A stretch of DNA of 41,072 bases from a virus (Duplodnaviria; Caudoviricetes): the IMG/VR virus record IMGVR_UViG_3300022930_000012, positions 1 through 41,072 of that record; one strand, written 5' to 3'. A model generated the notes under the pieces. The model made no database searches and was not told the DNA's origin. It saw nothing but the letters and a program-made list of their open reading frames with translations. Position numbers and translations under genes: made by a program. Positions within the stretch are counted from its first letter, which is position 1. Each line of letters opens with the position of its first letter. Shown here piece by piece: positions 7,596 to 40,992 of the stretch.

Positions 7596-8009
7596 ATGAA
7601 AAAATTATTATTATCATTGGCAATTGCATTTTCTTTAACTTCATGTTGGGATTTCAACAGAGAACAAGATTACAAAGATGCGGAAAACAAAGGTAAGTCA
7701 GTTTTAATTCAAGCAGAAAGCGAAAAAAAAGCAATGATTGAAGAGGCTAAAGCCAATTATGAATCTGCAAAACTTAACGCTCAAACTAAGGTTGAAAAAG
7801 CAAAAGCCGATGCAGACGCTAAATTAATTTCTGCTAAAGCAGAAGCATCAGCAAGATTGATGAATGCAGAAAGTCAAGCAAAAGCAAATAAAATGCTAGA
7901 TGAATCTATTACTCCTAAAATTTTGGAATTTAATAAAATCAATCGTTGGAACGGAAAGTTGCCTACAACTACTTTAGGAAGTCAAGGTTCAATCATAAAC
8001 TTAAAATAA
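7596..8009 (+). CDS. Lipoprotein with coiled coil and SPFH/prohibitin-like C-terminus
   Basis: Lipobox LTSC; Ala/Glu/Lys coiled coil; ANKMLDESITPKILEFNKINRWNGKLP tail. Confidence 0.6.
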   Translation: MKKLLLSLAIAFSLTSCWDFNREQDYKDAENKGKSVLIQAESEKKAMIEEAKANYESAKLNAQTKVEKAKADADAKLISAKAEASARLMNAESQAKANKMLDESITPKILEFNKINRWNGKLPTTTLGSQGSIINLK

Positions 8010-8104
8010 TGAGAATGACTTTGTTTTTTGTGGTTGGGATACCGCTCGCTATTTTATTGTATTTTTATGTTTTTAAAGATATAATAGATAATTTTAAAAA
8101 ATAA
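8009..8104 (+). CDS. 31-aa single-TM peptide (not in ORF track)
   Basis: TAATG coupling; MRMTLFFVVGIPLAILLYFYVFKDIIDNFKK. Confidence 0.55.
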   Translation: MRMTLFFVVGIPLAILLYFYVFKDIIDNFKK

Positions 8105-8136
8105 TCGTGTGAATATGCACGATACATACAATAACT

Positions 8137-8165
8137 AAAGCACCTTTTAACCGAGGTGCTTTTTT
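8137..8165 (+). terminator. Rho-independent terminator
   Basis: AAAGCACCT...AGGTGCTTT plus T tract. Confidence 0.8.
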
Positions 8166-8194
8166 AATTTAAATAGCCACTAAAAACAATTATT

Positions 8195-8527
8195 ATGAAA
8201 ATTAAAGGAAAATTCAAGAAGGATTTCGAAAATTATCTGTTGAAAAATGATTTAATGTCTCCTTGGGAATATCAAGTCTTTGAAAAACTTTCTGAGATAG
8301 TAAAATTAGCTTATATTATAGGTTTTTTAGATTCTAAAGGCTTGTATATAAATACTTTTTCAGTTTGTCTTATTTATACTTCTTTTGGTTATAATATTAG
8401 ATTTAAAGATATAGAAAAGCCAGAAATTGAATCTGATGAAAATGAATTTGACACTAGAAGTTTAGCTACAAAAGATGCTATTTCAAAAGCGCAAGAAATT
8501 TATAACTCAAATAAAATAGCAATATGA
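8195..8527 (+). CDS. Hypothetical phage protein
   Basis: ORF with A-rich leader. Confidence 0.65.
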   Translation: MKIKGKFKKDFENYLLKNDLMSPWEYQVFEKLSEIVKLAYIIGFLDSKGLYINTFSVCLIYTSFGYNIRFKDIEKPEIESDENEFDTRSLATKDAISKAQEIYNSNKIAI

Positions 8528-8847
8528 AACCAACCTTAAACGAAGAAATAAAAATGAGTGCAAAAGGAGTTGATTATGTTGATTCGCTTGTGCCAACTGA
8601 CAAGGATTGTATTAACGCAATCAAATATCAAATCGATGATGAATATATAAGGGCGGGTGAAAAAGGAATTTATGCTAAAGACGAAAAAGGCAAATTTTTT
8701 TTGTTAAGAAAAGAAATGTTCACTAATGACCCGCATTTAAAACCAAAGAAACAAAAATATAATATCCTACCATTAATAATATTTACATTCATGGTAATTT
8801 CAATCGTGCTTTGGATAATAGCAATAATTAAAATTAGTGAGTTATGA
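8524..8847 (+). CDS. Hypothetical protein with C-terminal TM helix
   Basis: ATGA-type overlaps; hydrophobic C-terminus. Confidence 0.65.
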   Translation: MKPTLNEEIKMSAKGVDYVDSLVPTDKDCINAIKYQIDDEYIRAGEKGIYAKDEKGKFFLLRKEMFTNDPHLKPKKQKYNILPLIIFTFMVISIVLWIIAIIKISEL

Positions 8848-9032
8848 AAAAAGAATGTAATTGCGGAACACTAAAAAAGTGTGTTAAAGCTGAAATGATT
8901 ATTCCTGACAAACCATTTATATTACCTACGTTTAAACAAGTTAATTTTTACAAGTGCTTTGAATGTAATGAAGAATATTATTTTAATTCAAACGATTTAA
9001 AACAACAACAAAAACAAGCTAAAGAACAGTAG
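8844..9032 (+). CDS. Small zinc-ribbon-like protein
   Basis: CNCG...CFEC motif. Confidence 0.55.
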   Translation: MKKECNCGTLKKCVKAEMIIPDKPFILPTFKQVNFYKCFECNEEYYFNSNDLKQQQKQAKEQ

Positions 9033-9033
9033 T

Positions 9034-9195
9034 ATGGAAGATTGTAAATGTAAACCAATTGTAGAAAGTAGTTTTACTACGTGCCATGTAGAAAGGAGAT
9101 TATACAAAAGAACATTAGTATATCATCCTTCAAACAGTAAGAAAGGATTTCCAATAAAAGGAACTAACTTAAGAGTTTCTTTTGAATATATTTAA
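9034..9195 (+). CDS. 53-aa hypothetical protein (not in ORF track)
   Basis: MEDCKCKPIVES..., tightly packed in the operon. Confidence 0.5.
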   Translation: MEDCKCKPIVESSFTTCHVERRLYKRTLVYHPSNSKKGFPIKGTNLRVSFEYI

Positions 9196-9199
9196 AATT

Positions 9200-9361
9200 A
9201 TGGAAAAATATCAAAAATGGATTTCAATATTTACATCTTGCCTAATTGGATCAGGATTTGGTAGCGTTATAAGTGGCAAACCATTTAATAACTATTTATT
9301 ATCTATTATATTATTTTTAATAGTAATTAATTTAGCTGTTGTAAACGCTAATAAAAAATAA
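9200..9361 (+). CDS. 53-aa membrane protein (not in ORF track)
   Basis: MEKYQKWISIFTSCLIGSGFG...LLSIILFLIVINLAVV; two hydrophobic segments. Confidence 0.55.
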   Translation: MEKYQKWISIFTSCLIGSGFGSVISGKPFNNYLLSIILFLIVINLAVVNANKK

Positions 9362-9367
9362 TTTATC

Positions 9368-9395
9368 AAACCTACACTAATAATGTAGGTTTTTT
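9368..9395 (+). terminator. Rho-independent terminator
   Basis: AAACCTACA-ctaataa-TGTAGGTTT plus T tract. Confidence 0.8.
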
Positions 9396-9399
9396 GTTT

Positions 9400-9407
9400 T
9401 ATATTTG
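9400..9407 (+). promoter_or_regulatory. Bacteroidota -7 promoter for tRNA
   Basis: TATATTTG 10 nt upstream of tRNA. Confidence 0.7.
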
Positions 9408-9417
9408 CTTTGATATT

Positions 9418-9491
9418 GGTCTTTTAACTCAGTTGGTTAGAGTAGCGCACTCATAATGCGTTTGTCGGAGGTTCGAGTCCTTCAAAGTCCA
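9418..9491 (+). tRNA. tRNA with CAT anticodon (elongator Met or Ile2); CCA not encoded
   Basis: Cloverleaf: GGTCTTT/AAAGTCC acceptor (one T:T mismatch), ACTC/GAGT D stem, GCGCA/TGCGT anticodon stem with CTCATAA loop, GGAGG-TTCGAGT-CCTTC T arm. Confidence 0.9.
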
Positions 9492-9627
9492 CGAATGCAG
9501 TTCGATTCTGCTCGCTTACCGAGATTGTGGTAAATGCTTAATGCTTCAGTTCGAGTCTGGAGAGCTATTTTATAGCACGGGTATATAAGCGGTAATTTTA
9601 ACTAACGCAGTGATTGCAGGAGTTTTT

Positions 9628-10452
9628 ATGGTAAATCCAATAATAAATTTATACCGTACAAAAGAGGAAGCAATGCTCTTCAAAAACTCGCCTCGAAACG
9701 CTTTCTATACGTTTTCGGGGATTCAGCTTTTGCCAAATAACCCAAATAAATATATTCAAGTTACCAATACACCAAACGGCATAAATTTAGAGGATTGGAC
9801 TGTTTACGGTATTTCTATTTGTGGTACGTACGAAGCTGATATTACCGCTTCGTTTATGGTTGAAAAACTAACCAATTCATTAAACGGTAATCCTCAATTA
9901 ATTTGGTCACTTAAAAACGTTCCTATTGATTTTGGATTTGGACTGATATATTTAAGAATTGAACAGGCAGTTGGCGAAACATTCTACAGCACGCCTTTTA
10001 AATTGACTTCAATCAATGAGGAATTAGTTAGCCAAATAACATACAAATACAAGCGTACTGATGAATTTCAAAGTATTGGAGCTAATATATGGTTTAGATC
10101 AGAATCACTTCAAATAAACCTTCAAAACTATTACGAAACATCAACAGAAAACACAGTTACTACTGCGGTACAATCAAATAAAACCGAATTTTGGGAAACT
10201 GAAAGCATGTCAATATCAAACCTTATAAACATTGTACAGCTTATGAAATTACCTTATGTTTATTTGAATGGTGCAAGAACTTATTTTTTTGAAGCTCCTG
10301 AAATACCAAAACCAACATCACAGGAAAATTTCGGTTACATGGAATTACATTTAACCGTAAACCCAAATGATGTTTATACACCACCTACAGTATCAAGTGG
10401 GGATTTCGATAACAATGATTTTATAGAAGACGATTTTTCAATATTTAATTAA
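9628..10452 (+). CDS. Tail structural protein
   Basis: Resumes the tail operon; C-terminal GDFDNNDFIEDDF motif; ATG 9628 preferred. Confidence 0.55.
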   Translation: MVNPIINLYRTKEEAMLFKNSPRNAFYTFSGIQLLPNNPNKYIQVTNTPNGINLEDWTVYGISICGTYEADITASFMVEKLTNSLNGNPQLIWSLKNVPIDFGFGLIYLRIEQAVGETFYSTPFKLTSINEELVSQITYKYKRTDEFQSIGANIWFRSESLQINLQNYYETSTENTVTTAVQSNKTEFWETESMSISNLINIVQLMKLPYVYLNGARTYFFEAPEIPKPTSQENFGYMELHLTVNPNDVYTPPTVSSGDFDNNDFIEDDFSIFN

Positions 10453-10459
10453 AAACACA

Positions 10460-11020
10460 ATGAAAAAATTATTTTTACTTTTATTAGTTCCTTTTTTACT
10501 TCAAGCGCAGTCTCGTTCTGAAATACAGACACAGATAGAAACTATTGCAACCGGAGTTCCAAACACAGCCTTAAAAATACGTAATGTTCTTTCGGTACTT
10601 GCTGACGGAACAGCGCAAACAGGAGATGTAAAAGAAATAGATGTTTCAAACGCATACCTTACAGCTAATTTTGACGCTTCTGGATTAGGAACAAATGAAC
10701 GCTTAGGATGGGCTATTTGTAACGGTCAAAACGGTACACGAAATCGTGGTGGTCGTGGTTCTATACAATACAACTCAACCTATCCAACGTTAGGAGCAAT
10801 AGGGGGATCAAAAGATGCGGTCGTAGTTTCTCATAGCCATCAACAAGGGTCTGAATCATTATACAACCTTTACGGAGGTGGTACATCGGTTGGAGGAAGA
10901 ACGTTTCCTTCTGGGGCTATAAATGCTTTTACAAGCCAAAATACATCAACAGCAGGAGAAAGCGGAACAGATAAAAATATGCAACCTTACATAGTAAGTT
11001 TATTTATTCAAAAACTATAA
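10460..11020 (+). CDS. Tail collar/short-fibre-like protein with N-terminal signal-peptide-like segment
   Basis: GWAICNGQNGT collar motif, HSH motif, NMQPYIVSLFIQK C-terminus; MKKLFLLLLVPFLLQA-Q N-terminus. Confidence 0.7.
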   Translation: MKKLFLLLLVPFLLQAQSRSEIQTQIETIATGVPNTALKIRNVLSVLADGTAQTGDVKEIDVSNAYLTANFDASGLGTNERLGWAICNGQNGTRNRGGRGSIQYNSTYPTLGAIGGSKDAVVVSHSHQQGSESLYNLYGGGTSVGGRTFPSGAINAFTSQNTSTAGESGTDKNMQPYIVSLFIQKL

Positions 11021-17830: not shown

Positions 17831-18346
17831 ATGGAAACATTAACGCACTGGAAAAAGAATAATGATTCGCGTTACATTAGCGGAGAAGATTTAAAAGCCG
17901 AACTCAAAGGCTTAAAAAAAGAAATGAATGTCGTTATTTCAAAGTTTGAAGATTCTGAAACTTTCGACATGAACAGCCAAAAAAAACTAACCCGTACAGG
18001 TTTTTGGCTTTCAGAATATCCAAGCGGAAAACCATTATACAAACCTGTTATTTTGAACAACACAAACGCTAATTTTTGCGAAAAAGAATTTGGCAGCGAG
18101 TACATGGAACATTGGTTGAACAAGCCTCTTGTACTTTACGCGTTGGCAGATAAAAGACACGGTCATGTAGCAAGATTCAAAAAGTATTACGCGCCTCAAA
18201 TATCAGATGTAAACGCGTTGGCAACTTTAAATAAGTCTAAAACATTAGACGAATTAAAATCTAATTGGGAACTGTTGACCGCGACCGAAAAGAATTTACC
18301 GACCGCATTGTCTTTAAAAGACAAACTTAAAAACGAGCTTAAATAA
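17831..18346 (+). CDS. Putative single-strand annealing/recombination protein
   Basis: THWKK N-terminus; translationally coupled to exonuclease, followed by SSB. Confidence 0.5.
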   Translation: METLTHWKKNNDSRYISGEDLKAELKGLKKEMNVVISKFEDSETFDMNSQKKLTRTGFWLSEYPSGKPLYKPVILNNTNANFCEKEFGSEYMEHWLNKPLVLYALADKRHGHVARFKKYYAPQISDVNALATLNKSKTLDELKSNWELLTATEKNLPTALSLKDKLKNELK

Positions 18347-19056
18347 TGATAAACTACAAAAACATTGACCAGAATTCCCCTGAATGGTACGCTATAAAAT
18401 GGCGAAAAATAGGTGGTACGTTATCAAAAGGCTTATTTGTTGATTCAGATACGTTATTCATCGAGTTGCTTTCTCAGTTCTTAGAAGAATATAAAGATCA
18501 AGAAGAAGAAGGATATATGAATGATGCAATGATACGAGGCAAAGAATTAGAACCACGCGCACTTGAGTATATTTCACAGTACACCGGAATACAATTTCAT
18601 TCTTCAGGATGGTTGCAAAGCGAAGAAAGTAAATTACTTGGCGTTTCTCCTGATGGAATTTCAGAATGTGAGGAATACGGAGCAGAAGCTAAATGTTTGT
18701 CCAGGAAAGAACATACGGCTATTTTAGTCGAGAACAAAACACCAAAAGAAAAGATACCGCAAATTGTTGAATACTTTACCGCCAACCCTAAATTTAAAAA
18801 AGTTTGGTTTATCGCGTTCCGTCCTGAGAGTATTAAACCCTTTATTGAAGAATTTACGCGTGAATCGGTTGTTGACATGGGATGGAAAAAGAAAATTGAA
18901 GTCGAAGTAATTGGAGCAAAAGGAACTCCAATAAAACCAAAAATTGAAACGGTTACTGATTGGCGAACAATTGACGCGTGGACAAAAATTGCTATTGAGA
19001 GAGCAAATAAATTAGAAATTAGAATCGAAGAAAAAATTAAACAATTAAAATTTTAA
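18346..19056 (+). CDS. YqaJ/lambda-exonuclease family protein
   Basis: QNSPEW, AMIRGKELEP, GVSPDG, EAKC motifs. Confidence 0.9.
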   Translation: MINYKNIDQNSPEWYAIKWRKIGGTLSKGLFVDSDTLFIELLSQFLEEYKDQEEEGYMNDAMIRGKELEPRALEYISQYTGIQFHSSGWLQSEESKLLGVSPDGISECEEYGAEAKCLSRKEHTAILVENKTPKEKIPQIVEYFTANPKFKKVWFIAFRPESIKPFIEEFTRESVVDMGWKKKIEVEVIGAKGTPIKPKIETVTDWRTIDAWTKIAIERANKLEIRIEEKIKQLKF

Positions 19057-21917: not shown

Positions 21918-22280
21918 ATGAAACCAGAAAATAAACCAGCATTCCCAACATTGTTTTACACACAATCTACGGGTCAACCATGCGGACATGATGAAGGAAT
22001 GTCTTTGAGGGATTATTTCGCTAATTCAGCTATGCAAGGACACTTATCTTCTGAGCACGGAGCCGGAATACATTGCGATAATCAAAATAAAGAATATTTA
22101 GCAAAATCGTTTTATAGCATGGCTGATGCAATGTTAAATGAGCGTAACAAAGAAAAAGAAAACGATCTTTTAGATTTAATTAAAAGTTTTGTTTCTGCAG
22201 ACCCAAACGACTCTACTTTTAATTATAAGGCATGTGTTTCAAAAGCTCTTCAATTAATTAGCAAATACGATAATCCATGA
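21918..22280 (+). CDS. Conserved phage protein
   Basis: PAFP...GMSLRDYFANSAMQG motif, common in phage early regions. Confidence 0.75.
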   Translation: MKPENKPAFPTLFYTQSTGQPCGHDEGMSLRDYFANSAMQGHLSSEHGAGIHCDNQNKEYLAKSFYSMADAMLNERNKEKENDLLDLIKSFVSADPNDSTFNYKACVSKALQLISKYDNP

Positions 22281-22407
22281 AAACCACAAACCAACTATTC
22301 CACAAATACAACACCAGTCTTAAAAAACGATTGTTGCCGGAACCGACAAATAGAAATCTTGTTTATATTTATCAAAGATTTGTTGTTAACTTAAATTAAT
22401 AAAATAT

Positions 22408-22692
22408 ATGGAAAATATTAAAATAAATTGCGATTGTGGAATAGTTCACGATGTAAGAAAAGATAATTCAGCACCAAAAAATGCTATTTCAATGGGGTGT
22501 AATTGGTGCCCAGAATGTGAAGATACAGCAGCAGAAGATTATTATCACGAATGGTATAATTTAAATGATGATAACGGCTCAAAAGAAATAGAACCAGATG
22601 TTCCTGATAATCAATTAATGTTATTTTCTATTGTTGATGATATTTTACAAAATCATGTAGTTAATAATGAATCAACAATAAAACAATTATGA
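22408..22692 (+). CDS. Cys-rich acidic protein
   Basis: CDCG and CNWCPEC. Confidence 0.6.
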   Translation: MENIKINCDCGIVHDVRKDNSAPKNAISMGCNWCPECEDTAAEDYYHEWYNLNDDNGSKEIEPDVPDNQLMLFSIVDDILQNHVVNNESTIKQL

Positions 22693-23078
22693 TACAAACA
22701 AACGAATTAAGAATAGGAAATTATGTTTCCAATATTCATGGAGAAACATTAAAGGTATCTATAGTAACTGAAAATGCAATTCATTCAAAGGAGAAGTACG
22801 ATATAATTGGTTGCCCATCATCTTGGATAAATCCAATACACTTAACTGAAGAATGGTTGATTAATTTTGGATTTGAAAAACTTCCTAACAATCGTTTTGA
22901 ACATGATTTATTAGATTGGGAGGTAGAAAGACAAGGAAATAAATTTTCTTTTTGTATTTGGGATGCGGAAAACCCAGCAGTAACAAATTTTATTATGCAC
23001 TCTTATTTTTTGCATACTTTCCAAAACAATTTTTTCGCCCTTACAGGCATCGAACTAACCCATCAAAAAATTAATTAA
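22689..23078 (+). CDS. YopX-like phage protein
   Basis: ELRIGNYV...PIHLTEEWLINFGF. Confidence 0.65.
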   Translation: MIQTNELRIGNYVSNIHGETLKVSIVTENAIHSKEKYDIIGCPSSWINPIHLTEEWLINFGFEKLPNNRFEHDLLDWEVERQGNKFSFCIWDAENPAVTNFIMHSYFLHTFQNNFFALTGIELTHQKIN

Positions 23079-23091
23079 AACCTAAACGGAA

Positions 23092-23331
23092 ATGAGAACA
23101 GCGATAGAAATGCTAGTCGAAGAACTAGAGGCAAAACATTCTGACATACTTTTTCAATACCCCAACTTATTATCGAATATTGACAAGTATTTAGAAACCG
23201 AAAAACAGCAAATTATTGAGGCTGTAACTTACGGTCAAAATAATCATGGAGTATCTATTACATGGGATTTAAAAACAGCAGAACAATACTACGAATCAAC
23301 ATACACAACAAACAAAGAAACTTTAAAATAA
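23092..23331 (+). CDS. Hypothetical phage protein
   Basis: EKQQIIEA...AEQYY motif. Confidence 0.65.
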   Translation: MRTAIEMLVEELEAKHSDILFQYPNLLSNIDKYLETEKQQIIEAVTYGQNNHGVSITWDLKTAEQYYESTYTTNKETLK

Positions 23332-23337
23332 ATTGGG

Positions 23338-23589
23338 ATGAAAACTATTTACAACACATTTATAAAAATGAAATCACAAAGTGATTGCGATATTATGAAG
23401 CAACTATGCATTGATTACAATCTACCAATAGGAAAATATAAGTCATCTTTTGAACTCATGAAAAATATAGGATATGTATTTTTTCATTATTCAGAAAATT
23501 CAAATGCATTTTATATTGGCGATAATTTTTATAACTTCAAAGAAGTAACGAAACAAGAGTTTACCGAACTTTTACAACCAACCCACTAA
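23338..23589 (+). CDS. Hypothetical protein
   Basis: ORF in packed operon. Confidence 0.55.
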   Translation: MKTIYNTFIKMKSQSDCDIMKQLCIDYNLPIGKYKSSFELMKNIGYVFFHYSENSNAFYIGDNFYNFKEVTKQEFTELLQPTH

Positions 23590-23609
23590 CGCCAATAGGT
23601 ATAAAATTT

Positions 23610-23915
23610 ATGATTATGAAATACACGAAAAAACCAGTTGAAATTGAAGCTATTCAGTTAACAGACAAAAACATTTTAGAAGTTTATAGATTCATACACG
23701 GTAAAGAATCAGTTAATTTAAGTATTCGTATGGCTTCTGATAAATGGGATGAATACGAAGAAATAGTAAAGTGTGAAGGTATGGCTTTAAAAACTTTAGA
23801 ATCTCACAATGAATATCAAAAAGCTATTATTTCAGATTACATTATTAAAGGAATTAAGGGAGAGTTTTATCCATGCCGTGAAGATATATTTTTACTAACT
23901 TATGATAAAGTTTAG
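23610..23915 (+). CDS. Conserved phage protein
   Basis: KKPVEIEAIQ...DYIIKGIKGEFYPC. Confidence 0.75.
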   Translation: MIMKYTKKPVEIEAIQLTDKNILEVYRFIHGKESVNLSIRMASDKWDEYEEIVKCEGMALKTLESHNEYQKAIISDYIIKGIKGEFYPCREDIFLLTYDKV

Positions 23916-23982
23916 AATATTTTTAAATATATTTACAAATAATTAAGGCTAGTGAAAATTAGGATGATTAAATAAAAAGAAT

Positions 23983-24035
23983 TATATTTGCTTATAAATA
24001 AATATCAAAAAGCCTGTTTTAAAGAATAGGCTTTT
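23983..24035 (+). promoter_or_regulatory. Promoter plus leader hairpin for replication operon
   Basis: TATATTTG 23983-23990, then AAAAGCCTGTTTT/AGAATAGGCTTTT hairpin. Confidence 0.65.
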
Positions 24036-24063
24036 ATTAAAGTAAAAAATTAAACATCGTATA

Positions 24064-24213
24064 ATGACGAAAGAAATAAGAAAAGATTTGTACACTCAGG
24101 CAGAGTATGCGAAGAAAATAGGCCTAACCCGTGGCCGAGTTAATCAGATGGTTAAGGCCGGAGAACTTAAAACGGTAACAGTAAATGGAGCAACCTTAAT
24201 TAAGATAGGTTAA
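24064..24213 (+). CDS. 49-aa excisionase-like HTH protein (not in ORF track)
   Basis: LYTQAEYAKKIGLTRGRVNQMVKAGELK. Confidence 0.75.
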   Translation: MTKEIRKDLYTQAEYAKKIGLTRGRVNQMVKAGELKTVTVNGATLIKIG

Positions 24214-24249
24214 AAATTTTTAGCTAATAATTATACATCGTTTAATAAA

Positions 24250-26493
24250 ATGGATAAATCATTTTTAAAAAGGCTTGCAGATTCTAACTTATCTATTATT
24301 CCGGTATCGGCCGATAAAAGGCCGTTAGGACAATGGAAAGCATACCAAACAGAAGCACGCACAAAAGAAGATATAGATAAACTAAACAGTCCTTTATATG
24401 GGCTTGTTACAGGTTTCTCAGGTGTTGAAGTTATTGATGTGGATTTAAAGGTTTTTTCTACGCTTCAGGAACAAAACGACTTTTGGAATGAATTACTTTC
24501 TTTCCTAAAAGATAATATTGACGACTTCGATAAAAAGTTTGTTATTTATAAAACTAAGAATCAAGGTTATCATATTTTATACCGTTGTGAATCAATAGTA
24601 GGAAACACAAAAATAGCCGTTTTAGAAGGACATAAAGAGGCCGTCATTGAATCCCGTGGTATTGGCGGAATGGTTGTTTTATATGAAAACCAAATTTCTA
24701 AATTATCGTATTCAGAAATCCAAACTATTTCTGTTCGTGATCGTGAAATTGCCTGGGGAATTGCTAAAACTTACAATTACATTAACCATGAAGAAATTGA
24801 GGCTCCTAAAATAAAAGAGAAGACATACGATGAATCTATTATTACACCATGGGACGATTATAACCAAAAGGTATCAATATTTGAAATAATATCAGGCGAA
24901 TTAAAAATAGTGCGTACATTAAATGATAGATATATTTTACAACGTATTGGTTCTGAAAATCCAATGTCTGGGAGTGTTTTTAAATCTAACGGTTGCATGT
25001 ATTTGTTTTCTACTGGTACCAGTTGGGCACACGAAAAACTTTATAGCCCTTTTACGGCCTACACAAGACTATTCCATCATGATGATTACACGGCATCGGC
25101 CAGAGAATTATACAATAAAGGTTACGGAACCAGATTAATACATAAGAAAATTGAAAAGGCCGAACCTGAAAAACGAGAAACACCAATCATAAATAAGAAT
25201 GATTTAGTTTTTCCTATTGAAATATTTCCGGCACCAATACAATCTTATATTTTGGAATGTAAAGAAACATTAGATAGCTCTATTGATTACATGGGGTGTA
25301 GTATGTTGTGGTTAATTTCGGTTATAGTTGGTAATTCAATACAAATTGAGGTTAAAAAAGGATGGACTGAAACCGCTACAATTTGGTTGGCCGTAGTTGG
25401 TAAGGCCGGACTTGGAAAAACGCCATCTATTCACAATATTATTAAGCCGTTGTTAATGGCCAATAATAAAGAGATTAAAAACTACATTAAACAATCTGAA
25501 AAATTCGAGTACTACGATAAATTATCGGCCAAAGAAAAGAAAGACCATGAAGAAATACAACGGCCAACCAAAAGCCAATTTATAGCCAATGACATTACTA
25601 TTGAAGCCTTAGTTGAATTACATCAAGAAAACCCTAACAGCGTAGGAGTATTTAAAGACGAGTTGGCCGGATGGTTTAAAGACATGAATAAGTATCGTGA
25701 AGGATCAGATTTAGAATTTTGGCTTTCCACATGGAGCGGTAAGGCTATTTCATTAAATCGTAAAACAGCAAAGTCGGCCTTTGTCGATAAACCCTTGGTT
25801 TCAGTTTTAGGAGGTATACAGCCAAGTATTTTAAATTCATTCTATACTGATGATAATAAAGATAATGGTTTTATGGATCGTATGCTTTTATCGTACCCCG
25901 ATTTAGAAATTGAAAAGTGGAATGATAAAGAAATGGATTACGATACAATACAATGGTACCAAGATAGTATAATTGCGTTCTACGAAACAGTAAAACATAA
26001 AGTGGTACAATTTGATTCAGATGGAGATATTGCGCCTAAAACGGCCATAATACCAAAAGAGAGTAAAGCCGAATGGATCAGGGTTTTTAATGAGTATACC
26101 GATATTCAGAATTCAGATGAAGAAAACGAGTACATGAAATCAATGTTGCCAAAACAAAAATCTTATTTACCTCGTTTTGCTTTGCTTTTAAATACGTTAG
26201 ATAGTTTTTTTGATGATACGCACACGGCCGATGCAATGAAGATATCTAAAGAATCAATTTTAAAGGCTGAGAAAGTTTCAAAGTATTTTATAGCCATGGC
26301 AAAAAAGATTAAGGTTAATTCAATTGAAACTCACGAAATAAAATCAATCATAACAACCAACAAATTAAAATCTAATAAGGAGAAGTTTACAGAGCTTTAT
26401 AAAATAAATCCAGAATTAGATAAAAAGGAAGTGGCCGAGATTTTAGGAGTTTCTTTACAGATGATCTATAAATATGTTAAAGAAATGAAGTAG
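24250..26493 (+). CDS. Bifunctional primase-polymerase / DUF3987-type helicase with C-terminal HTH
   Basis: Prim-Pol motifs VIDVD and GYHILY; Walker A GKAGLGKT; DELAGW; LGGIQP; GFMDR; C-terminal VAEILGVSLQMIYKY. Confidence 0.88.
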   Translation: MDKSFLKRLADSNLSIIPVSADKRPLGQWKAYQTEARTKEDIDKLNSPLYGLVTGFSGVEVIDVDLKVFSTLQEQNDFWNELLSFLKDNIDDFDKKFVIYKTKNQGYHILYRCESIVGNTKIAVLEGHKEAVIESRGIGGMVVLYENQISKLSYSEIQTISVRDREIAWGIAKTYNYINHEEIEAPKIKEKTYDESIITPWDDYNQKVSIFEIISGELKIVRTLNDRYILQRIGSENPMSGSVFKSNGCMYLFSTGTSWAHEKLYSPFTAYTRLFHHDDYTASARELYNKGYGTRLIHKKIEKAEPEKRETPIINKNDLVFPIEIFPAPIQSYILECKETLDSSIDYMGCSMLWLISVIVGNSIQIEVKKGWTETATIWLAVVGKAGLGKTPSIHNIIKPLLMANNKEIKNYIKQSEKFEYYDKLSAKEKKDHEEIQRPTKSQFIANDITIEALVELHQENPNSVGVFKDELAGWFKDMNKYREGSDLEFWLSTWSGKAISLNRKTAKSAFVDKPLVSVLGGIQPSILNSFYTDDNKDNGFMDRMLLSYPDLEIEKWNDKEMDYDTIQWYQDSIIAFYETVKHKVVQFDSDGDIAPKTAIIPKESKAEWIRVFNEYTDIQNSDEENEYMKSMLPKQKSYLPRFALLLNTLDSFFDDTHTADAMKISKESILKAEKVSKYFIAMAKKIKVNSIETHEIKSIITTNKLKSNKEKFTELYKINPELDKKEVAEILGVSLQMIYKYVKEMK

Positions 26494-26494
26494 A

Positions 26495-26745
26495 ATTTTA
26501 AACCATTTTAAACTAGGTTTAAACCTGTGAAGCACTATAAACACTGAGCTTTAAAACGTTTAAACCTTTTAAACCAAGTTTAAAATACTTTTCACAAAAA
26601 ACAAAAACACATTTTTATTTTTTAATTATTTTTAAACCAAAAGTTTAAAAGTTTAAAATCACATCTAAAGCCAATGACAATACAGGTTAACATTTTTAAA
26701 CTCGGTTTAATTGGTTTAAAATAAAAAGGCAGTTTAAACCGTTTT
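26495..26745. repeat. Candidate replication origin, TTTAAA iteron array
   Basis: About 13 copies of TTTAAA, mostly as TTTAAAC/GTTTAAA, in non-coding DNA directly after the primase gene. Confidence 0.75.
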
Positions 26746-26786
26746 AATACAAAAAAATGTTATCTTTGTTTAAAATCAACTTAAAA

Positions 26787-27233
26787 ATGGAGAACAATTA
26801 TTCATCAGTATATTTTTTGAAACATAAAAATACTGTGCCTATAAAAATAGGCCATTCAAAAGAACCAAATCCAAAAAGAAGAATACAATCGTATTTAACT
26901 TATGCGCCTTTTGGAATTGATTATTTAGGCCATGTAAAAATTAAGGGAAAAGAAAACAGCGTTCTTTTAGAGAAACGAATTCAGGCCTATTTTAAAGATA
27001 AGAGATTAGTAAAAGAATGGTTTTTAGTATCTGAGGCCGAAATAGTAAATTACTTAGAAAAATCAGGCTTAAAATTTATTAAAAATAATGCCGGAGAGAA
27101 GGTAAAAAGAAAAAACAAAATAGTAGAGTTTTACAACATTCAAAAAAACATTCAAACTACTGCTATTAATTTCAATGTATCGATTCAGTATGTATACCGT
27201 ATTTTAAAGAAACATGGAGTAAAAAAAAAATAA
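26787..27233 (+). CDS. GIY-YIG/T5orf172-like protein with C-terminal HTH
   Basis: VYFL...IKIGHS...RI...LEKRI...EWF; promoter TATCTTTG at 26761-26768. Confidence 0.75.
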   Translation: MENNYSSVYFLKHKNTVPIKIGHSKEPNPKRRIQSYLTYAPFGIDYLGHVKIKGKENSVLLEKRIQAYFKDKRLVKEWFLVSEAEIVNYLEKSGLKFIKNNAGEKVKRKNKIVEFYNIQKNIQTTAINFNVSIQYVYRILKKHGVKKK

Positions 27234-27237
27234 AACT

Positions 27238-28497
27238 ATGAAAAAAACACTAAGAGATTACCAGAAACAAATATCATTAAAAGGAATTGAAATACTGCGT
27301 AAATACGGCCTTGTTTATTACTCTATGGAAGTACGTACCGGAAAAACTGCAACCGCTTTAGAAACGGCTTATTTGTACGGGGCAAAGGTTGTTTTGTTCC
27401 TAACTAAAAAAAGAGCGATTACGAGTATTGAAAATGACTATAAAGATTTCGGTTACGATGATAAATTTAATTTAATTGTGGCTAACGATGAAAGTTTACA
27501 TTTGATTACTTCAATGCCTGATTTAGTTATACACGATGAGCATCATAGATTTGGCGCTTTCCCAAAGCCAAACAAGACCGCAAAATTATTTAAAGATAAA
27601 TTCGGTAGGCTTCCAATGATTTTTTTATCTGGCACACCACATCCAGAATCATACTCGCAAATATTTCATCAATTCTGGGTAAAGGTTGGATTCTGGAAAA
27701 GACATATTAATTTTTACAAATGGTTTAATGAATTTGGCATAGCTAATAAAAAGCATTTAGGCTATGCGATCGTAAACGATTATACTAAATTGAACGATTC
27801 GGGAATGGAGGCTATAAAATGGATGCAAAGAAAACTATTCGTTACTTATACTCAAATTGAATCAGGTTTTACAACATCAGTAAATAAAAAAGTACTGTAT
27901 TGCGATATGAATTCAGAAACTCATTTCATGTGTAAAAAACTATGTAAAGAATTATTTATGACTATTGAGGGGAAAGAAGTAATTGCAGATACCGCTGTTA
28001 AATTACAATCAAAAATACATCAATTGTCAAGCGGATCAATTATTGCAGATGATAAAGATGTAATTATTACCGATATTTCTAAAGTAGAATTTATACACAA
28101 TCATTTCAAAGGAAAAAAAATGGCAATATTCTATTTTTTCAAAGCTGAGTATGATATGTTGAAATTAATATTTCAAGGCAGTTTAACTGATAATTTAGAG
28201 GAATTCAATAAAACTGATAAACATATAGCTTTACAGCAAATATCAGGAGCTGAAGGGATTAGTTTAGCCAAAGCAGATGTATTAATTTTTTATAACTTTG
28301 GTTTTTCTAATGTGAAATTTACTCAGGCAATTGACCGATTAACCACAATGGAACGAAAAGAAAACGATGTTTATTTTATATTCGGGAAAGGAGGAATAGA
28401 AGAAAAAATATATAATCGACTGGAACTAAAAAAAGATTACATAACGTCAGCATTTAAAAAAGATTACAATGTCAAATTTCCAAAAAAAGTTAATTAA
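27238..28497 (+). CDS. Superfamily 2 (SNF2-like) helicase
   Basis: LRDYQ, RTGKT, DEHH, LSGTP, GAEGISL, QAIDR motifs. Confidence 0.88.
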   Translation: MKKTLRDYQKQISLKGIEILRKYGLVYYSMEVRTGKTATALETAYLYGAKVVLFLTKKRAITSIENDYKDFGYDDKFNLIVANDESLHLITSMPDLVIHDEHHRFGAFPKPNKTAKLFKDKFGRLPMIFLSGTPHPESYSQIFHQFWVKVGFWKRHINFYKWFNEFGIANKKHLGYAIVNDYTKLNDSGMEAIKWMQRKLFVTYTQIESGFTTSVNKKVLYCDMNSETHFMCKKLCKELFMTIEGKEVIADTAVKLQSKIHQLSSGSIIADDKDVIITDISKVEFIHNHFKGKKMAIFYFFKAEYDMLKLIFQGSLTDNLEEFNKTDKHIALQQISGAEGISLAKADVLIFYNFGFSNVKFTQAIDRLTTMERKENDVYFIFGKGGIEEKIYNRLELKKDYITSAFKKDYNVKFPKKVN

Positions 28498-28735
28498 AGA
28501 ATATACTCAAAAAGGATATACTGTTTTGAAAACTATTCGTTTAAACTCAAACGCCTATCCAGATTTATTATGTATGAAATTAGGAGAAGTAGATATTTGG
28601 ATTGAATCAAAAGAATTAAATGATGATTTAAAGCCACTACAGAAACTAAGAATTGACCAATTAAATGCATTAGGTAAACGTGCCTTTTGTATGCAAGACA
28701 CTAAGGGGATTATTTATCCCCTACCCAAAAATTGA
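28469..28735 (+). CDS. VRR-NUC domain nuclease
   Basis: YPDL...WIESK...KPLQ PD-(D/E)xK motif next to helicase. Confidence 0.85.
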   Translation: MSNFQKKLIKEYTQKGYTVLKTIRLNSNAYPDLLCMKLGEVDIWIESKELNDDLKPLQKLRIDQLNALGKRAFCMQDTKGIIYPLPKN

Positions 28736-28757
28736 GCCTTACCTAAAATAGAGAATT

Positions 28758-29108
28758 ATGTTAGATATTTTGAGACATTGGAATCCGGAACTAAAGCAAT
28801 CAGTAAATAGTAAACATGTTTACATTGCTAATTATTGTCCAGTATGTAAATATTATAATTATTCAGGCAGGCATTTTAGATATAATACTCAATTAAAAAA
28901 TATTAAATGCTACAATTGCGGAATGGGCGCAAAAAACATACAAACCTTATTGCATCAAATTAGAAATGGTGTAAATCCAGGTTATTGTAATCTTGTCAGC
29001 CACGAAAGAAAGCGAGATTATGAGAGACGTAAATTGACCTTAGAGAGATTAAGATTTGAAAAGGTATCAAAGTGTGAGACAGAGTATGAAAGTGCTATGC
29101 CGTTTTGA
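28758..29108 (+). CDS. Zinc-finger protein (primase Zn-binding-like)
   Basis: CPVC...CYNCG. Confidence 0.6.
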   Translation: MLDILRHWNPELKQSVNSKHVYIANYCPVCKYYNYSGRHFRYNTQLKNIKCYNCGMGAKNIQTLLHQIRNGVNPGYCNLVSHERKRDYERRKLTLERLRFEKVSKCETEYESAMPF

Positions 29109-29117
29109 CCGCGTTGC

Positions 29118-29154
29118 CGGTTAGTTTAGCTCAAATGGTCGCTAACCGTTTTTT
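29118..29154 (+). terminator. Possible terminator
   Basis: CGGTTAG...CTAACCG plus T6. Confidence 0.5.
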
Positions 29155-29200
29155 ATTAAAATTGAGCCTTATTTCAAAACTAAAAATAAATAGAGAAATT

Positions 29201-29416
29201 ATGTATAAAGTAGAAGTAACTTACTCGGCAAACAAAGTATCTAAAATACAAGTAGGTCAATTTTCAGCAGAATCCTATATGACAATAGGAGAAACTGTAT
29301 CTGAATTAGTAGAAAGGCGTTTAGAGGAAATGCAAGAAATTAATCCTGAAAACATAAGCATCACTTTAGATTTGCAATATATTGAAGATGATGACGAAGA
29401 CTGCGATGATTACTAA
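29201..29416 (+). CDS. Acidic hypothetical protein
   Basis: ATG 29201 with A-rich leader preferred over TTG 29105. Confidence 0.55.
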   Translation: MYKVEVTYSANKVSKIQVGQFSAESYMTIGETVSELVERRLEEMQEINPENISITLDLQYIEDDDEDCDDY

Positions 29417-29452
29417 CCAACCTTATTTTAAATAACATTAAAAAAAAAGATT

Positions 29453-29779
29453 ATGAACGACAAAGAAAAACAATTTGAAGAAGTTATTGAATCAACACTA
29501 AAACAGATTAGAGATCTTTTAATAACAAAAGGAAAAGAATATAGACGAAACAATGATCCATATCATAATTTTAACCGAGGAGCAGAGCTTACAGGAAAAA
29601 GCACTGAAGAAGTTCTACAAGGATTTTTATTAAAACATTTAATATCAGTTGAGGATATTAGAAACGACATAAAAGAAGGAATTATGCCTAAATCAGACAA
29701 AGTGAATGAAAAATACAATGACATTTTAGTATATTTCCTAATCGAGAAAGCTATGTTGTTGGATAGAATTAACTATTAA
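29453..29779 (+). CDS. Conserved all-helical phage protein (possible nucleotide pyrophosphohydrolase-like)
   Basis: KGKEY...DPYHNF...KH...D..VY pattern. Confidence 0.55.
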   Translation: MNDKEKQFEEVIESTLKQIRDLLITKGKEYRRNNDPYHNFNRGAELTGKSTEEVLQGFLLKHLISVEDIRNDIKEGIMPKSDKVNEKYNDILVYFLIEKAMLLDRINY

Positions 29780-39919: not shown

Positions 39920-40090
39920 ATGGCAGAAGATAAAAAAGAAGTTGAGGTTAAACAGCCGAAAACTGAAAAATTCAAAATTAAAAGGGAAGTCGTAATTGAC
40001 AAACCTTATAAATTAGGTAGCGAAATTACGCTGACTAAAGGCAAAGACGACAAATTAAAAGAAACATTAATCTTTAATAAATTCATATAA
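39920..40090 (+). CDS. Small hypothetical virion-module protein
   Basis: ATG 39920 preferred; TAATG coupling. Confidence 0.55.
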   Translation: MAEDKKEVEVKQPKTEKFKIKREVVIDKPYKLGSEITLTKGKDDKLKETLIFNKFI

Positions 40091-40992
40091 TGGCTTTAGA
40101 AGATCAAATTAACAAAGTAGATTGTACAGCGAGCGGAGTATTGGGAACTGGTTTAGCCGGATGCCGAATCGACCGTGACAGAGTAACAGCAATCGGACTT
40201 CTTACGAGAGGTTTTAAATTCGCAGAAGAAATTACGCTTGAATATATGCGTGAACTTCAAACAAACGGAACATTGATTATGCTTCAGGGTGTAATTACTT
40301 TTGTGGATAATACAGCCGAAGATACGGTAATTACCCGTGATGGTTCTGGGATTAAAAAAGTAGCCGGACAGATGCCGTATGAATATGCAGCAACTTTTGA
40401 TAATGGTGTGAACTTTCATAAAGCATTAACATCACTATCTTCTTATGAAGGTTATGATATTGTACTTTTTGACGTAAACAACACATTATGGCTTACTTCT
40501 ACTAAATCAGGAGAGTACAAAGGATTCTCTTTGGGTATGTTCCAAAATGGAAAATACACCGGAGCAAACGGAACGGATTCGGCAAGTCAAACTGTACCAT
40601 TCCAAATTATCAACAGGTTAGAGGTTGATTCTTTGATGTCGTGGGTAACTAACGAGAATTTAGACTTCACTTATGATGAATTGCAAGGAGTAAATGAAGT
40701 ATTGATTACTGTTGACCCAGTATCGGCAGGAACTTTAATAGTAGTTAGTGCATTTCTTTTAGACGGAACGCATCCTGTCGAAGGTTTGTTATTCGGTAAC
40801 TTTACAGCAACTAAAAATGGAGTATCGAGTAATCCAACAGCTGCTACCTATAGCGCAGTAACTAAGAAATACACCCTTACAGTTCCGACTTTGGTCGCTA
40901 CTGATGTAGTTACGGTTTCTTTAAACGGGATCATCCTAACTACATTAGGAACGCTTTACAAATCAAACACATCAACAGCGGTTGTAGTGTAA
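40090..40992 (+). CDS. Major tail (tube) protein with Ig-like C-terminal domain (allele B)
   Basis: 300 aa, followed by strong terminator, upstream of chaperone and tape measure on the circular map; Thr/Val-rich C-terminus. Confidence 0.8.
   Translation: MALEDQINKVDCTASGVLGTGLAGCRIDRDRVTAIGLLTRGFKFAEEITLEYMRELQTNGTLIMLQGVITFVDNTAEDTVITRDGSGIKKVAGQMPYEYAATFDNGVNFHKALTSLSSYEGYDIVLFDVNNTLWLTSTKSGEYKGFSLGMFQNGKYTGANGTDSASQTVPFQIINRLEVDSLMSWVTNENLDFTYDELQGVNEVLITVDPVSAGTLIVVSAFLLDGTHPVEGLLFGNFTATKNGVSSNPTAATYSAVTKKYTLTVPTLVATDVVTVSLNGIILTTLGTLYKSNTSTAVVV

What the first reader, a model, noticed from the sequence alone, without database searches (positions are those of the whole stretch)
24121..27310. 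GGCC island: a tetramer avoided genome-wide is packed into the replication module
Seen: by manual scan GGCC occurs about 24 times in 3.2 kb (about 24121, 24133, 24156, 24309, 24320, 24639, 25056, 25098, 25158, 25389, 25404, 25458, 25527, 25562, 25665, 25776, 26043, 26226, 26433, 26850, 26928, 26984, 27035, 27307). It occurs only twice (about 4572, 17490) in the other 38 kb, roughly a 100-fold density difference. Many sites use synonymous choices unexpected in AT-rich DNA (TCG-GCC, ACG-GCC, AAG-GCC, GAG-GCC, CGG-CCA). The island covers the small HTH gene, the primase-helicase, both flanks of the origin candidate and the GIY-YIG-like gene, and ends at the start of the helicase. Known: GGCC is the HaeIII-type restriction/m5C site; phages purge restriction sites; Vsr-type repair enriches methylase sites; Dam GATC clusters regulate E. 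coli oriC. Inference: either a recently swapped module from a lineage under GGCC methylation and very-short-patch repair, or a methylation-sensitive replication control that reads host methylation, since no phage MTase is evident.
Basis: partly seen in the sequence, partly recalled or inferred. Interest (0 to 1): 0.8.

Follow-up and report, generated by a model that had tools for sequence, protein, structure and literature searches.

The report
Restriction-site islands in phage replication genes
This phage, likely of Flavobacterium, has purged the restriction site GGCC from almost its whole genome yet packs 24 copies into its DNA-replication genes, and related phages do the same with other restriction sites, a reversal of the usual rule that likely reflects selection for host methylation marks on the replication DNA.

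Summary
Confirmed exactly: 24 GGCC in 24121-27310 against 2 in the other 38 kb (143-fold; 13x above and 12x below base-composition expectation). The primase uses 16 of 34 synonymous opportunities, genes outside the replication region 2 of 531. Sites are kept across relatives of 77-85% DNA identity and new ones arise. The pattern recurs in this phage group on four unrelated primase types and SF2 helicases, with different words: GGCC, CGCG, CCGG, GGWCC, GGNCC. In 30 genomes, 11 of 13 genes with a codon-corrected palindrome excess are replication or recombination genes (89 of 1,388 genes). The cultured Flavobacterium phage lillamy9-1 has 14 of its 17 CCGG at its primase. The window has a second, CGCG island on its recombination genes. 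No Vsr signature, no GGCC-rich donor phage or host, and no phage methyltransferase were found. GGCC methyltransferases of Flavobacterium sit beside restriction enzymes. Best reading (about 0.38): dense host cytosine methylation is selected on origin-linked replication genes as a local shield, while sites elsewhere are purged. The mechanism is untested; the pattern is solid, not found in ten literature searches, and testable in culture.

The parts
24121..27310 (.). GGCC island: 24 sites in 3.19 kb
24064..24213 (+). 49-aa Cox/excisionase-like HTH gene; 3 GGCC of 5 possible; 94% identical to the HTH gene at the edge of the island of G011, whose primase is unrelated
24250..26493 (+). 747-aa Prim-Pol + DUF3987 primase-helicase with C-terminal HTH; 16 GGCC of 34 possible; GC3 outside the sites 0.25, as in other genes
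26493..26750 (.). Candidate replication origin (inferred): 23% GC, 13 TTTAAA, direct and inverted repeats; no GGCC
   Evidence: TTTAAA clusters at the same place in G001, G002, G022
26757..27233 (+). 158-aa T5orf172/MUG113 (GIY-YIG-like) nuclease gene, possibly a homing endonuclease; 4 GGCC of 6 possible
   Evidence: no relatives found in viral contigs
27238..28497 (+). 419-aa SF2 (ResIII/SNF2-like) helicase; only the site at 27307 (1 of 19); island edge
17868..18978 (.). Second island: 9 of the genome's 11 CGCG sites, on the recombination genes
17831..18346 (+). 171-aa gene of no known family upstream of the exonuclease (recombinase role inferred from position only); 5 CGCG of 12 possible
18346..19056 (+). 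YqaJ-like recombination exonuclease; 4 CGCG of 18 possible

Best explanation
The phage keeps 24 GGCC sites in its replication genes by synonymous codon choice while the rest of its genome has purged them, and the sites are likely selected because a Flavobacterium host's HaeIII-type methyltransferase would put dense methyl-cytosine marks on this origin-linked DNA and so shield it locally from a methylation-sensitive attacker. Shown: the island, its retention and turnover, its confinement to replication/recombination genes, its recurrence with other restriction words, its double-strand symmetry, and the presence of GGCC restriction-modification pairs in the likely host genus.
For: Per-site retention far above synonymous background: window vs L001 9 of 15 (2.6 expected), vs G001 7 of 11 (0.7), L001 vs G001 7 of 9 (0.85); lineage-specific gains, some with amino-acid change. 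Of the 40 best-supported of 533 differences in close relatives, 0 destroy and 3 create a site (2.3 and 0.39 expected). G|GCC at 52 of 115 opportunities in 5 island primases against 1 of 247 in 14 close non-island ones. Complete genome G001: all 19 GGCC inside the primase; G012: all 18 GGWCC in helicase, primase and the next gene; G002: 40 of 52 CGCG clusters in 5.6 kb. 3 of 8 genomes chosen by capsid homology have clear islands, all on replication genes. The strong words are all cytosine-methylation restriction sites (GGCC, CCGG, CGCG; for GGWCC/GGNCC recalled); GCGC, which the window does not avoid, reached no p<1e-4 hit and forms clusters in replication genes only beside CGCG. GGACC 17 and GGTCC 19 on the coding strand of four genes. 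F. psychrophilum has HpaII (CCGG) and FnuDII (CGCG) systems (PMC11837570). M.HaeIII-like methyltransferase in 11 of 401 genus genomes, 9 with an adjacent HaeIII- or NgoPII-family nuclease. Other avoided words stay avoided inside the primase (GGNCC, CGCG, CTAG, GCNGC all 0). Precedent for a methyl-sensitive, sequence-independent sensor of replication intermediates: DrmAB (PMC9142583).
Against: No methylome, host or reader is known for this phage; no attacker was identified. Twenty-four sites make unmethylated phage very sensitive to restriction, and GGCC systems are in only about 3% of the genus genomes sampled. The DISARM paper itself says methylated DNA still supports activation and class 2 DISARM protects against modified phage. 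Several islands end exactly at gene borders: the initiator-like DUF6291 gene beside Toprim primases has 0-2 CCGG sites, and the 410-420-aa helicases next to the origin have 0-1 GGCC, which a pure distance-from-origin shield does not predict. Island genomes G001, G002 and lillamy9-1 have no recognised homing nuclease beside the primase. The windows over the island are among the most deviant in tetranucleotide signature even without GGCC words (0.223-0.228, top of 48; the AT-rich origin contributes), so a foreign origin of the module is not excluded. Two genomes have CCGG about 2x above expectation throughout (G009, G010).
Confidence: 0.38

Rival explanations
1. Neutral drive: a methylation-directed repair or gene-conversion ratchet (as proposed for cyanobacterial HIP1) fixes sites wherever heteroduplex DNA forms often, and the replicon is the recombination or homing hot spot; the sites have no function.
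For: Saturation near half of all opportunities, turnover and amino-acid-changing gains look like a per-site process; model in PMC4390886.
Against: The only established enzyme of this kind, Vsr (recalled), does not fit: GGTC/GACC not depleted, and for CCGG the non-Vsr neighbour CAGG/CCTG is depleted more (1.16 vs 3.70/kb) than CTGG/CCAG (1.65 vs 2.87). Chromosomes that carry HaeIII systems have GGCC O/E 0.86-1.03, and 0.24-1.32 at dnaG/dnaB. Terminase genes, also widely shared, show 0 of 15 enriched.
Confidence: 0.2
2. Conditional self-cutting: the sites are meant to be cut. In a host with that restriction enzyme an unmethylated genome loses only its replication module, and the site-free remainder is rescued by recombination with a resident phage, or breaks near the origin start recombination-dependent replication.
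For: Explains why the same genome purges the word everywhere else; the cognate methyltransferases are nuclease-coupled, not orphans; modules are visibly swapped gene by gene; the phage has an exonuclease/SSB set.
Against: The allele that is cut is the one lost, so it gains nothing (inference); a few sites would suffice, yet 16-24 are kept; breaks inside the primase gene destroy the gene needed for replication.
Confidence: 0.15
3. SeqA/Dam-like control: a protein that binds hemimethylated sites coats the region after replication and times re-initiation or expression of the replication genes.
For: In Dam-positive gamma-proteobacteria GATC is enriched beside oriC and in replication and repair genes (PMC4786541); islands abut the candidate origin.
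Against: Five words would need five readers; the methyltransferases found are restriction-coupled and rare; host dnaG/dnaB are not enriched; the origin itself has no GGCC; 1 of 24 genomes has an integrase and lillamy9-1 is described as virulent.
Confidence: 0.12
4. Plain module swap from a donor lineage (phage, plasmid or host) that is GGCC-rich throughout.
For: Sharp gene-level edges; only the primase block is shared with L001 and G001; deviant tetranucleotide signature.
Against: No such donor among 30 phage genomes, 80 + 79 primase loci or 201 genus genomes (the richest sampled have 4-6/kb at 42-53% GC, O/E 1.2-2.1); plasmid hits are below 30% identity. Five words on four primase types would need several unseen donors that give only replication genes; GC3 and other avoided words match the genome.
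Confidence: 0.1
5. RNA-level signal: the word is a cleavage or pairing site in replication-gene mRNA (RegB- or MazF-like; recalled).
For: Islands often match open reading frames exactly.
Against: All words are DNA palindromes; GGACC and GGTCC are equally frequent on the coding strand; two CGCG sites of G002 are intergenic.
Confidence: 0.04

Closest known systems
GATC enrichment beside oriC and in replication/repair genes of Dam-positive gamma-proteobacteria (Sobetzko et al. 2016, PMC4786541; abstract and passages read)
   Same: A methyltransferase site is over-represented, after codon correction, in origin-flanking and replication genes; the authors call the replication-gene effect puzzling.
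   Different: There the methyltransferase is an orphan read by SeqA and MutH, and the word is fixed. Here the genome is a phage, the word is a restriction site purged elsewhere, about half of all opportunities are used, and five words alternate.
Cyanobacterial HIP1 and alternative HIPs (Elhai 2015, PMC4390886; passages read)
   Same: A palindrome tied to a methyltransferase is over-represented; the word can change between lineages.
   Different: HIPs are genome-wide; here the word is confined to a few genes and depleted elsewhere, and host chromosomes with the cognate system show no excess.
Restriction-site avoidance in phages (established knowledge)
   Same: The other 38 kb, and most relatives, avoid GGCC, GGNCC, CGCG.
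   Different: The island is the inverse, in essential genes. T5 and T7 first-entering regions (recalled) lack sites locally; they do not gain them.
GATC clusters of P1 ori and pac (recalled, from no call)
   Same: Methylation-site cluster tied to phage replication.
   Different: Those are 5-7 sites in under 250 bp of a cis element; here kilobases of coding DNA, and none in the origin itself.
DISARM DrmAB methylation sensing (Bravo et al. 2022, PMC9142583; passages read)
   Same: A sequence-independent defence acting on replication intermediates whose activity is reduced by 5-methylcytosine: the kind of reader the best explanation needs.
   Different: No DISARM host is known for this phage; no phage counter-adaptation by site gain is described in the passages read.

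Membership tests
Dam/SeqA-type origin control | Orphan methyltransferase for the word | tested here: not met
   9 of 11 M.HaeIII-like genes in 401 genus genomes have an adjacent HaeIII- or NgoPII-family nuclease; 2 loci are cut or broken; none in the phage. The true host is unknown.
Dam/SeqA-type origin control | Sites clustered in the origin itself | tested here: not met
   No GGCC in 26493-26750; origin assignment is inferred.
Dam/SeqA-type origin control | Hemimethylation-specific binding protein | not testable with these tools
   Needs pull-down or genetics.
Dam/SeqA-type origin control | Word enriched in origin-flanking and replication genes | tested here: met
Vsr (very short patch) signature | Depletion of the T:G precursor (GGTC/GACC; CTGG/CCAG) | tested here: not met
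   Primases 1.01 vs 1.02/kb; helicases 2 vs 11 counts, weak; window island 1 vs 65 in the rest; for CCGG the non-Vsr neighbour is depleted more.
Vsr (very short patch) signature | Sites gained at the methylated inner position | tested here: not met
   Most sites are NNG|GCC, made at the outer bases by third-position choice.
HIP (highly iterated palindrome) | Genome-wide over-representation | tested here: not met
   O/E 0.08 outside the island; hosts with HaeIII 0.86-1.03.
HIP (highly iterated palindrome) | Cognate methyltransferase in the same cell | tested here: inconclusive
   Exists in the genus; host of this phage unknown.
Horizontally acquired compositional island | Donor-like GC, GC3 and word usage | tested here: inconclusive
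   GC 0.313 vs 0.319 and GC3 0.25 match, other avoided words stay avoided, but the overall tetramer distance is the highest of 48 windows; no donor found.

The most novel reading that the evidence does not exclude
Flavobacterium phages run restriction-site selection in reverse: they recode their primase and helicase genes to carry as many sites of the host's own restriction-modification system as the protein allows, borrow the host methyltransferase as armour for the replicon against an undescribed methyl-sensitive nuclease or sensor, and switch word when they switch host. The island word would then tell which restriction system the host of an uncultured phage carries.
Probability: 0.35. Interest if true: 0.92.

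Novelty: categorically new. Interest (0 to 1): 0.82.

Why it matters
Phages are expected to lose restriction sites, most of all in essential genes. Here the same genomes purge a site almost completely and load it to about half of what the code permits in their primase or helicase, repeatedly and with at least five words. Some strong per-site force acts on phage replication DNA and has not been described in the papers searched. It is a far stronger version of the unexplained GATC excess in bacterial replication genes, it may reveal a methylation-sensitive defence or phage-against-phage weapon, and it could predict host restriction systems from phage sequence. A cultured phage-host pair carries it, so it can be tested now.

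Tried and rejected
Vsr signature: rejected. Codon or tRNA preference: sites occur in all frames and need the preceding G. Helical phasing: none (R 0.19-0.30). Phage methyltransferase: none in 59 ORFs or by whole-genome search with a short C5 enzyme and PF01555. C5 methyltransferases in relatives (11 of 28) do not track islands; the one beside the G017 island is closest to PDB 8yf3, taken to be CmoX (recalled; GC motif in PMC12783734). Integrase: 1 of 24. HIP-like host: none. Plasmid donor: only distant hits. Relatives of the T5orf172 gene: none; no solved relative. Five of six cultured phages had no island (Leef_1, phi12:1, Arctus_1, P12024S, lotta8-1). The methyltransferase that separates restricted from unrestricted phages on LMO6 is an N6/N4 enzyme of unknown site, so that restriction cannot be tied to CCGG. 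GCNGC, GTNAC, AASTT and similar clusters in tail or repeat genes were set aside as protein-repeat effects. The primase tree is a quick one and was not put to a one-clade test, so 'two gains of GGCC' is a hint only. Ten paper searches found no description of such islands; subscription journals are mostly outside the library. Four look-ups of earlier findings gave nothing on this pattern.
Full report
Observation. The window is a complete 41-kb siphovirus-like record whose relatives point to Flavobacteriales hosts (host inferred). GGCC occurs 24 times in 24121-27310 and twice elsewhere, at exactly the positions given. That is 7.52 against 0.053 per kb; base composition predicts 1.9 and 23.8, so the word is about 13-fold enriched inside and 12-fold depleted outside, at equal GC. 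The primase has 16 sites against 1.0 expected from genome codon usage and 4.8 from within-gene shuffles. Of the places where a synonymous choice could make GGCC, the HTH gene uses 3 of 5, the primase 16 of 34, the T5orf172 nuclease 4 of 6, the helicase 1 of 19 and genes outside 22000-29500 2 of 531. A second island was found: 9 of the 11 CGCG sites lie in 17868-18978, on the YqaJ exonuclease and the gene before it.

Anatomy. The island covers a Cox-like HTH gene, a Prim-Pol/DUF3987 primase-helicase, a 23%-GC TTTAAA-repeat region taken to be the origin (inferred; no GGCC in it), a GIY-YIG-like gene and the first 70 bases of an SF2 helicase. No methyltransferase or integrase was found in the genome.

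The sites are maintained. Among 80 viral loci with this primase, 4 carry a GGCC island, 3 a CGCG island and 6 a CCGG excess; most have none. L001 and G001 are 85% and 77% identical in DNA. Where the amino acids are unchanged, 9 of 15 and 7 of 11 window sites are kept, against 2.6 and 0.7 expected from other G- and C-ending codons; each lineage also has sites of its own, some made with an amino-acid change. In three runs with closer relatives, none of the 40 best-supported differences (of 533) destroys a site and three create one. A quick tree puts GGCC alleles in two groups; this was not tested further.

The pattern is general and convergent. I examined the window and 29 related records (G006 in part; G012 without its last 51 bases), reached through primase, helicase, exonuclease and capsid queries. 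A codon-aware test of every gene against 112 palindromic words (155,456 tests) gave 15 hits at p<1e-4 in 13 genes; 11 are primases, helicases or YqaJ, a class of 89 of 1,388 genes, and of the other two one is a pentapeptide-repeat protein and one lies in a repeat-rich stretch. With a looser rule 17 of 88 replication genes and 6 of 1,218 others pass, those six all CCGG in genomes that do not avoid it. Of the 8 genomes chosen by capsid alone, 3 have clear islands, all on replication genes: GGWCC in G010 (20 of 25) and G012 (18 of 18), GGCC/GGNCC in G011 on an unrelated Toprim-DnaB primase. G001 has all 19 GGCC in its primase; G017 has 24 of 25 on a split BT4734-like/DUF5906 primase and a helicase; G016 has 18 of 22 in a helicase. 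Among 74 listed Toprim loci (of 75) 7 have 11-17 CCGG in the gene with 0-2 outside and 5 have GGNCC/GGCC islands; among 28 listed loci (of 30) of a third primase type 12 have 6-12 GGWCC. Key genes use about 30-60% of their opportunities, flanks about 1% or less. Many of these loci are related, so they are not independent; independence rests on the four primase types and five words. One of six cultured phages fetched shows it: lillamy9-1 has 14 of 17 CCGG at its primase, the other three in a methyltransferase gene, and 25 records share that module at 99% or more.

What the words are. GGACC and GGTCC are equally common on the coding strand (17 and 19), so the signal is double-stranded. CCGG and CGCG are restriction-modification sites of F. 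psychrophilum (PMC11837570, passages and Table 1 excerpt). In genomes of the genus of G034 (a Flavobacterium by its record title) a HaeIII-family nuclease is in 3 of 151 and an M.HaeIII-like methyltransferase in 11 of 401, 9 of them beside a HaeIII- or NgoPII-family nuclease (that NgoPII cuts GGCC is recalled).

GGTC/GACC is not depleted in island primases (1.01 vs 1.02 per kb); sites are made mainly by NNG|GCC, 52 of 115 against 1 of 247. Chromosomes with HaeIII systems have GGCC O/E 0.86-1.03 and no excess at dnaG or dnaB. None of 201 genus genomes approaches island density except at high GC. No low-GC phage rich in GGCC throughout was seen. Against my own reading: the island's overall tetramer signature is the most deviant of 48 windows, G009 and G010 are 2x rich in CCGG throughout, and several islands stop at gene borders next to the origin.

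Mechanism. Saturation near half of all opportunities means each site counts on its own, which fits a local benefit or a drive better than a self-destruct signal. Five interchangeable cytosine words fit a reader of methyl-cytosine better than five word-specific proteins. I therefore commit, at 0.38, to selection for host methylation as a local shield on origin-linked replication DNA, with purging elsewhere by the cognate nuclease. DrmAB is a precedent for such a reader (PMC9142583, passages), though that paper notes that methylated DNA still activates it. Rivals: neutral methyl-directed drive 0.2 (PMC4390886, passages), conditional self-cutting 0.15, SeqA-like control 0.12 (PMC4786541, abstract and passages), plain swap 0.1, RNA signal 0.04. 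None of these steps was tested experimentally.

Novelty. It fails the membership tests for Dam/SeqA control, Vsr bias and HIPs, while resembling the first in where the sites lie. Ten searches of the held library found no description; passages of PMC10711547 and PMC7077304 (passages; supplement rows and Table S13) do not mention it. Papers outside the library could. Verdict: real, recurrent, unexplained and directly testable in lillamy9-1 with LMO9 and LMO6; interest 0.82.

Noticed in passing
window 17868-18978: Second island: 9 of 11 CGCG on the recombination genes; close relatives L095-L097 keep 2-4 per gene; G002 has CGCG over its whole recombination-plus-replication block.
   Followed up: yes
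L215 (MN812212.1) 2380-3036: The three CCGG of lillamy9-1 outside the primase region all lie in DNA methyltransferase gene gp007.
   Followed up: partly
L102 24-935 (G017); also G025: C5 methyltransferase closest to PDB 8yf3 (E 7e-39), likely a CmoX-type carboxymethyltransferase, 600 bases upstream of a GGCC island; a homologue at 63% in G025.
   Followed up: partly
G009, G011, G012, G022, G030, G006, G002: Short (205-268 aa) C5-methyltransferase-like genes that match only the first 80-111 positions of PF00145.
   Followed up: no
L234-L236 primase; L009/L010 primase; G008 7737-10725: Weaker islands of TCGA (23-32 in the gene), CATG (12 vs 2) and CTAG (10 vs 14), possibly the same process with other methyltransferases.
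   Followed up: partly
island primases: GGAC/GTCC is 2.6/kb in GGCC-island primases against 0.95/kb in others, perhaps a relic of an earlier GGWCC island; L249, L252 and L255 carry CCGG and GGNCC together, as if switching word.
   Followed up: no
L218 (lotta8-1): Zero GGCC, CCGG, CATG, CTAG, GGNCC and CCNGG in 34.7 kb, but CGCG and GCGC 2-3x above expectation.
   Followed up: no
window 40090-40992 and 117-578: Both ends match the same PHROG (31902), consistent with a circularly permuted record with a short terminal overlap.
   Followed up: no
L059 3930-6101 and 10863-11639; L002 4808-6988: Helicase-N6/N4-methyltransferase fusion genes and a Mom-family gene beside the primase.
   Followed up: no
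L033 9135-9972; G002 22700-23750; L002 648-1320: Tandem-repeat coding stretches (one a pentapeptide-repeat protein) that give false word islands.
   Followed up: partly
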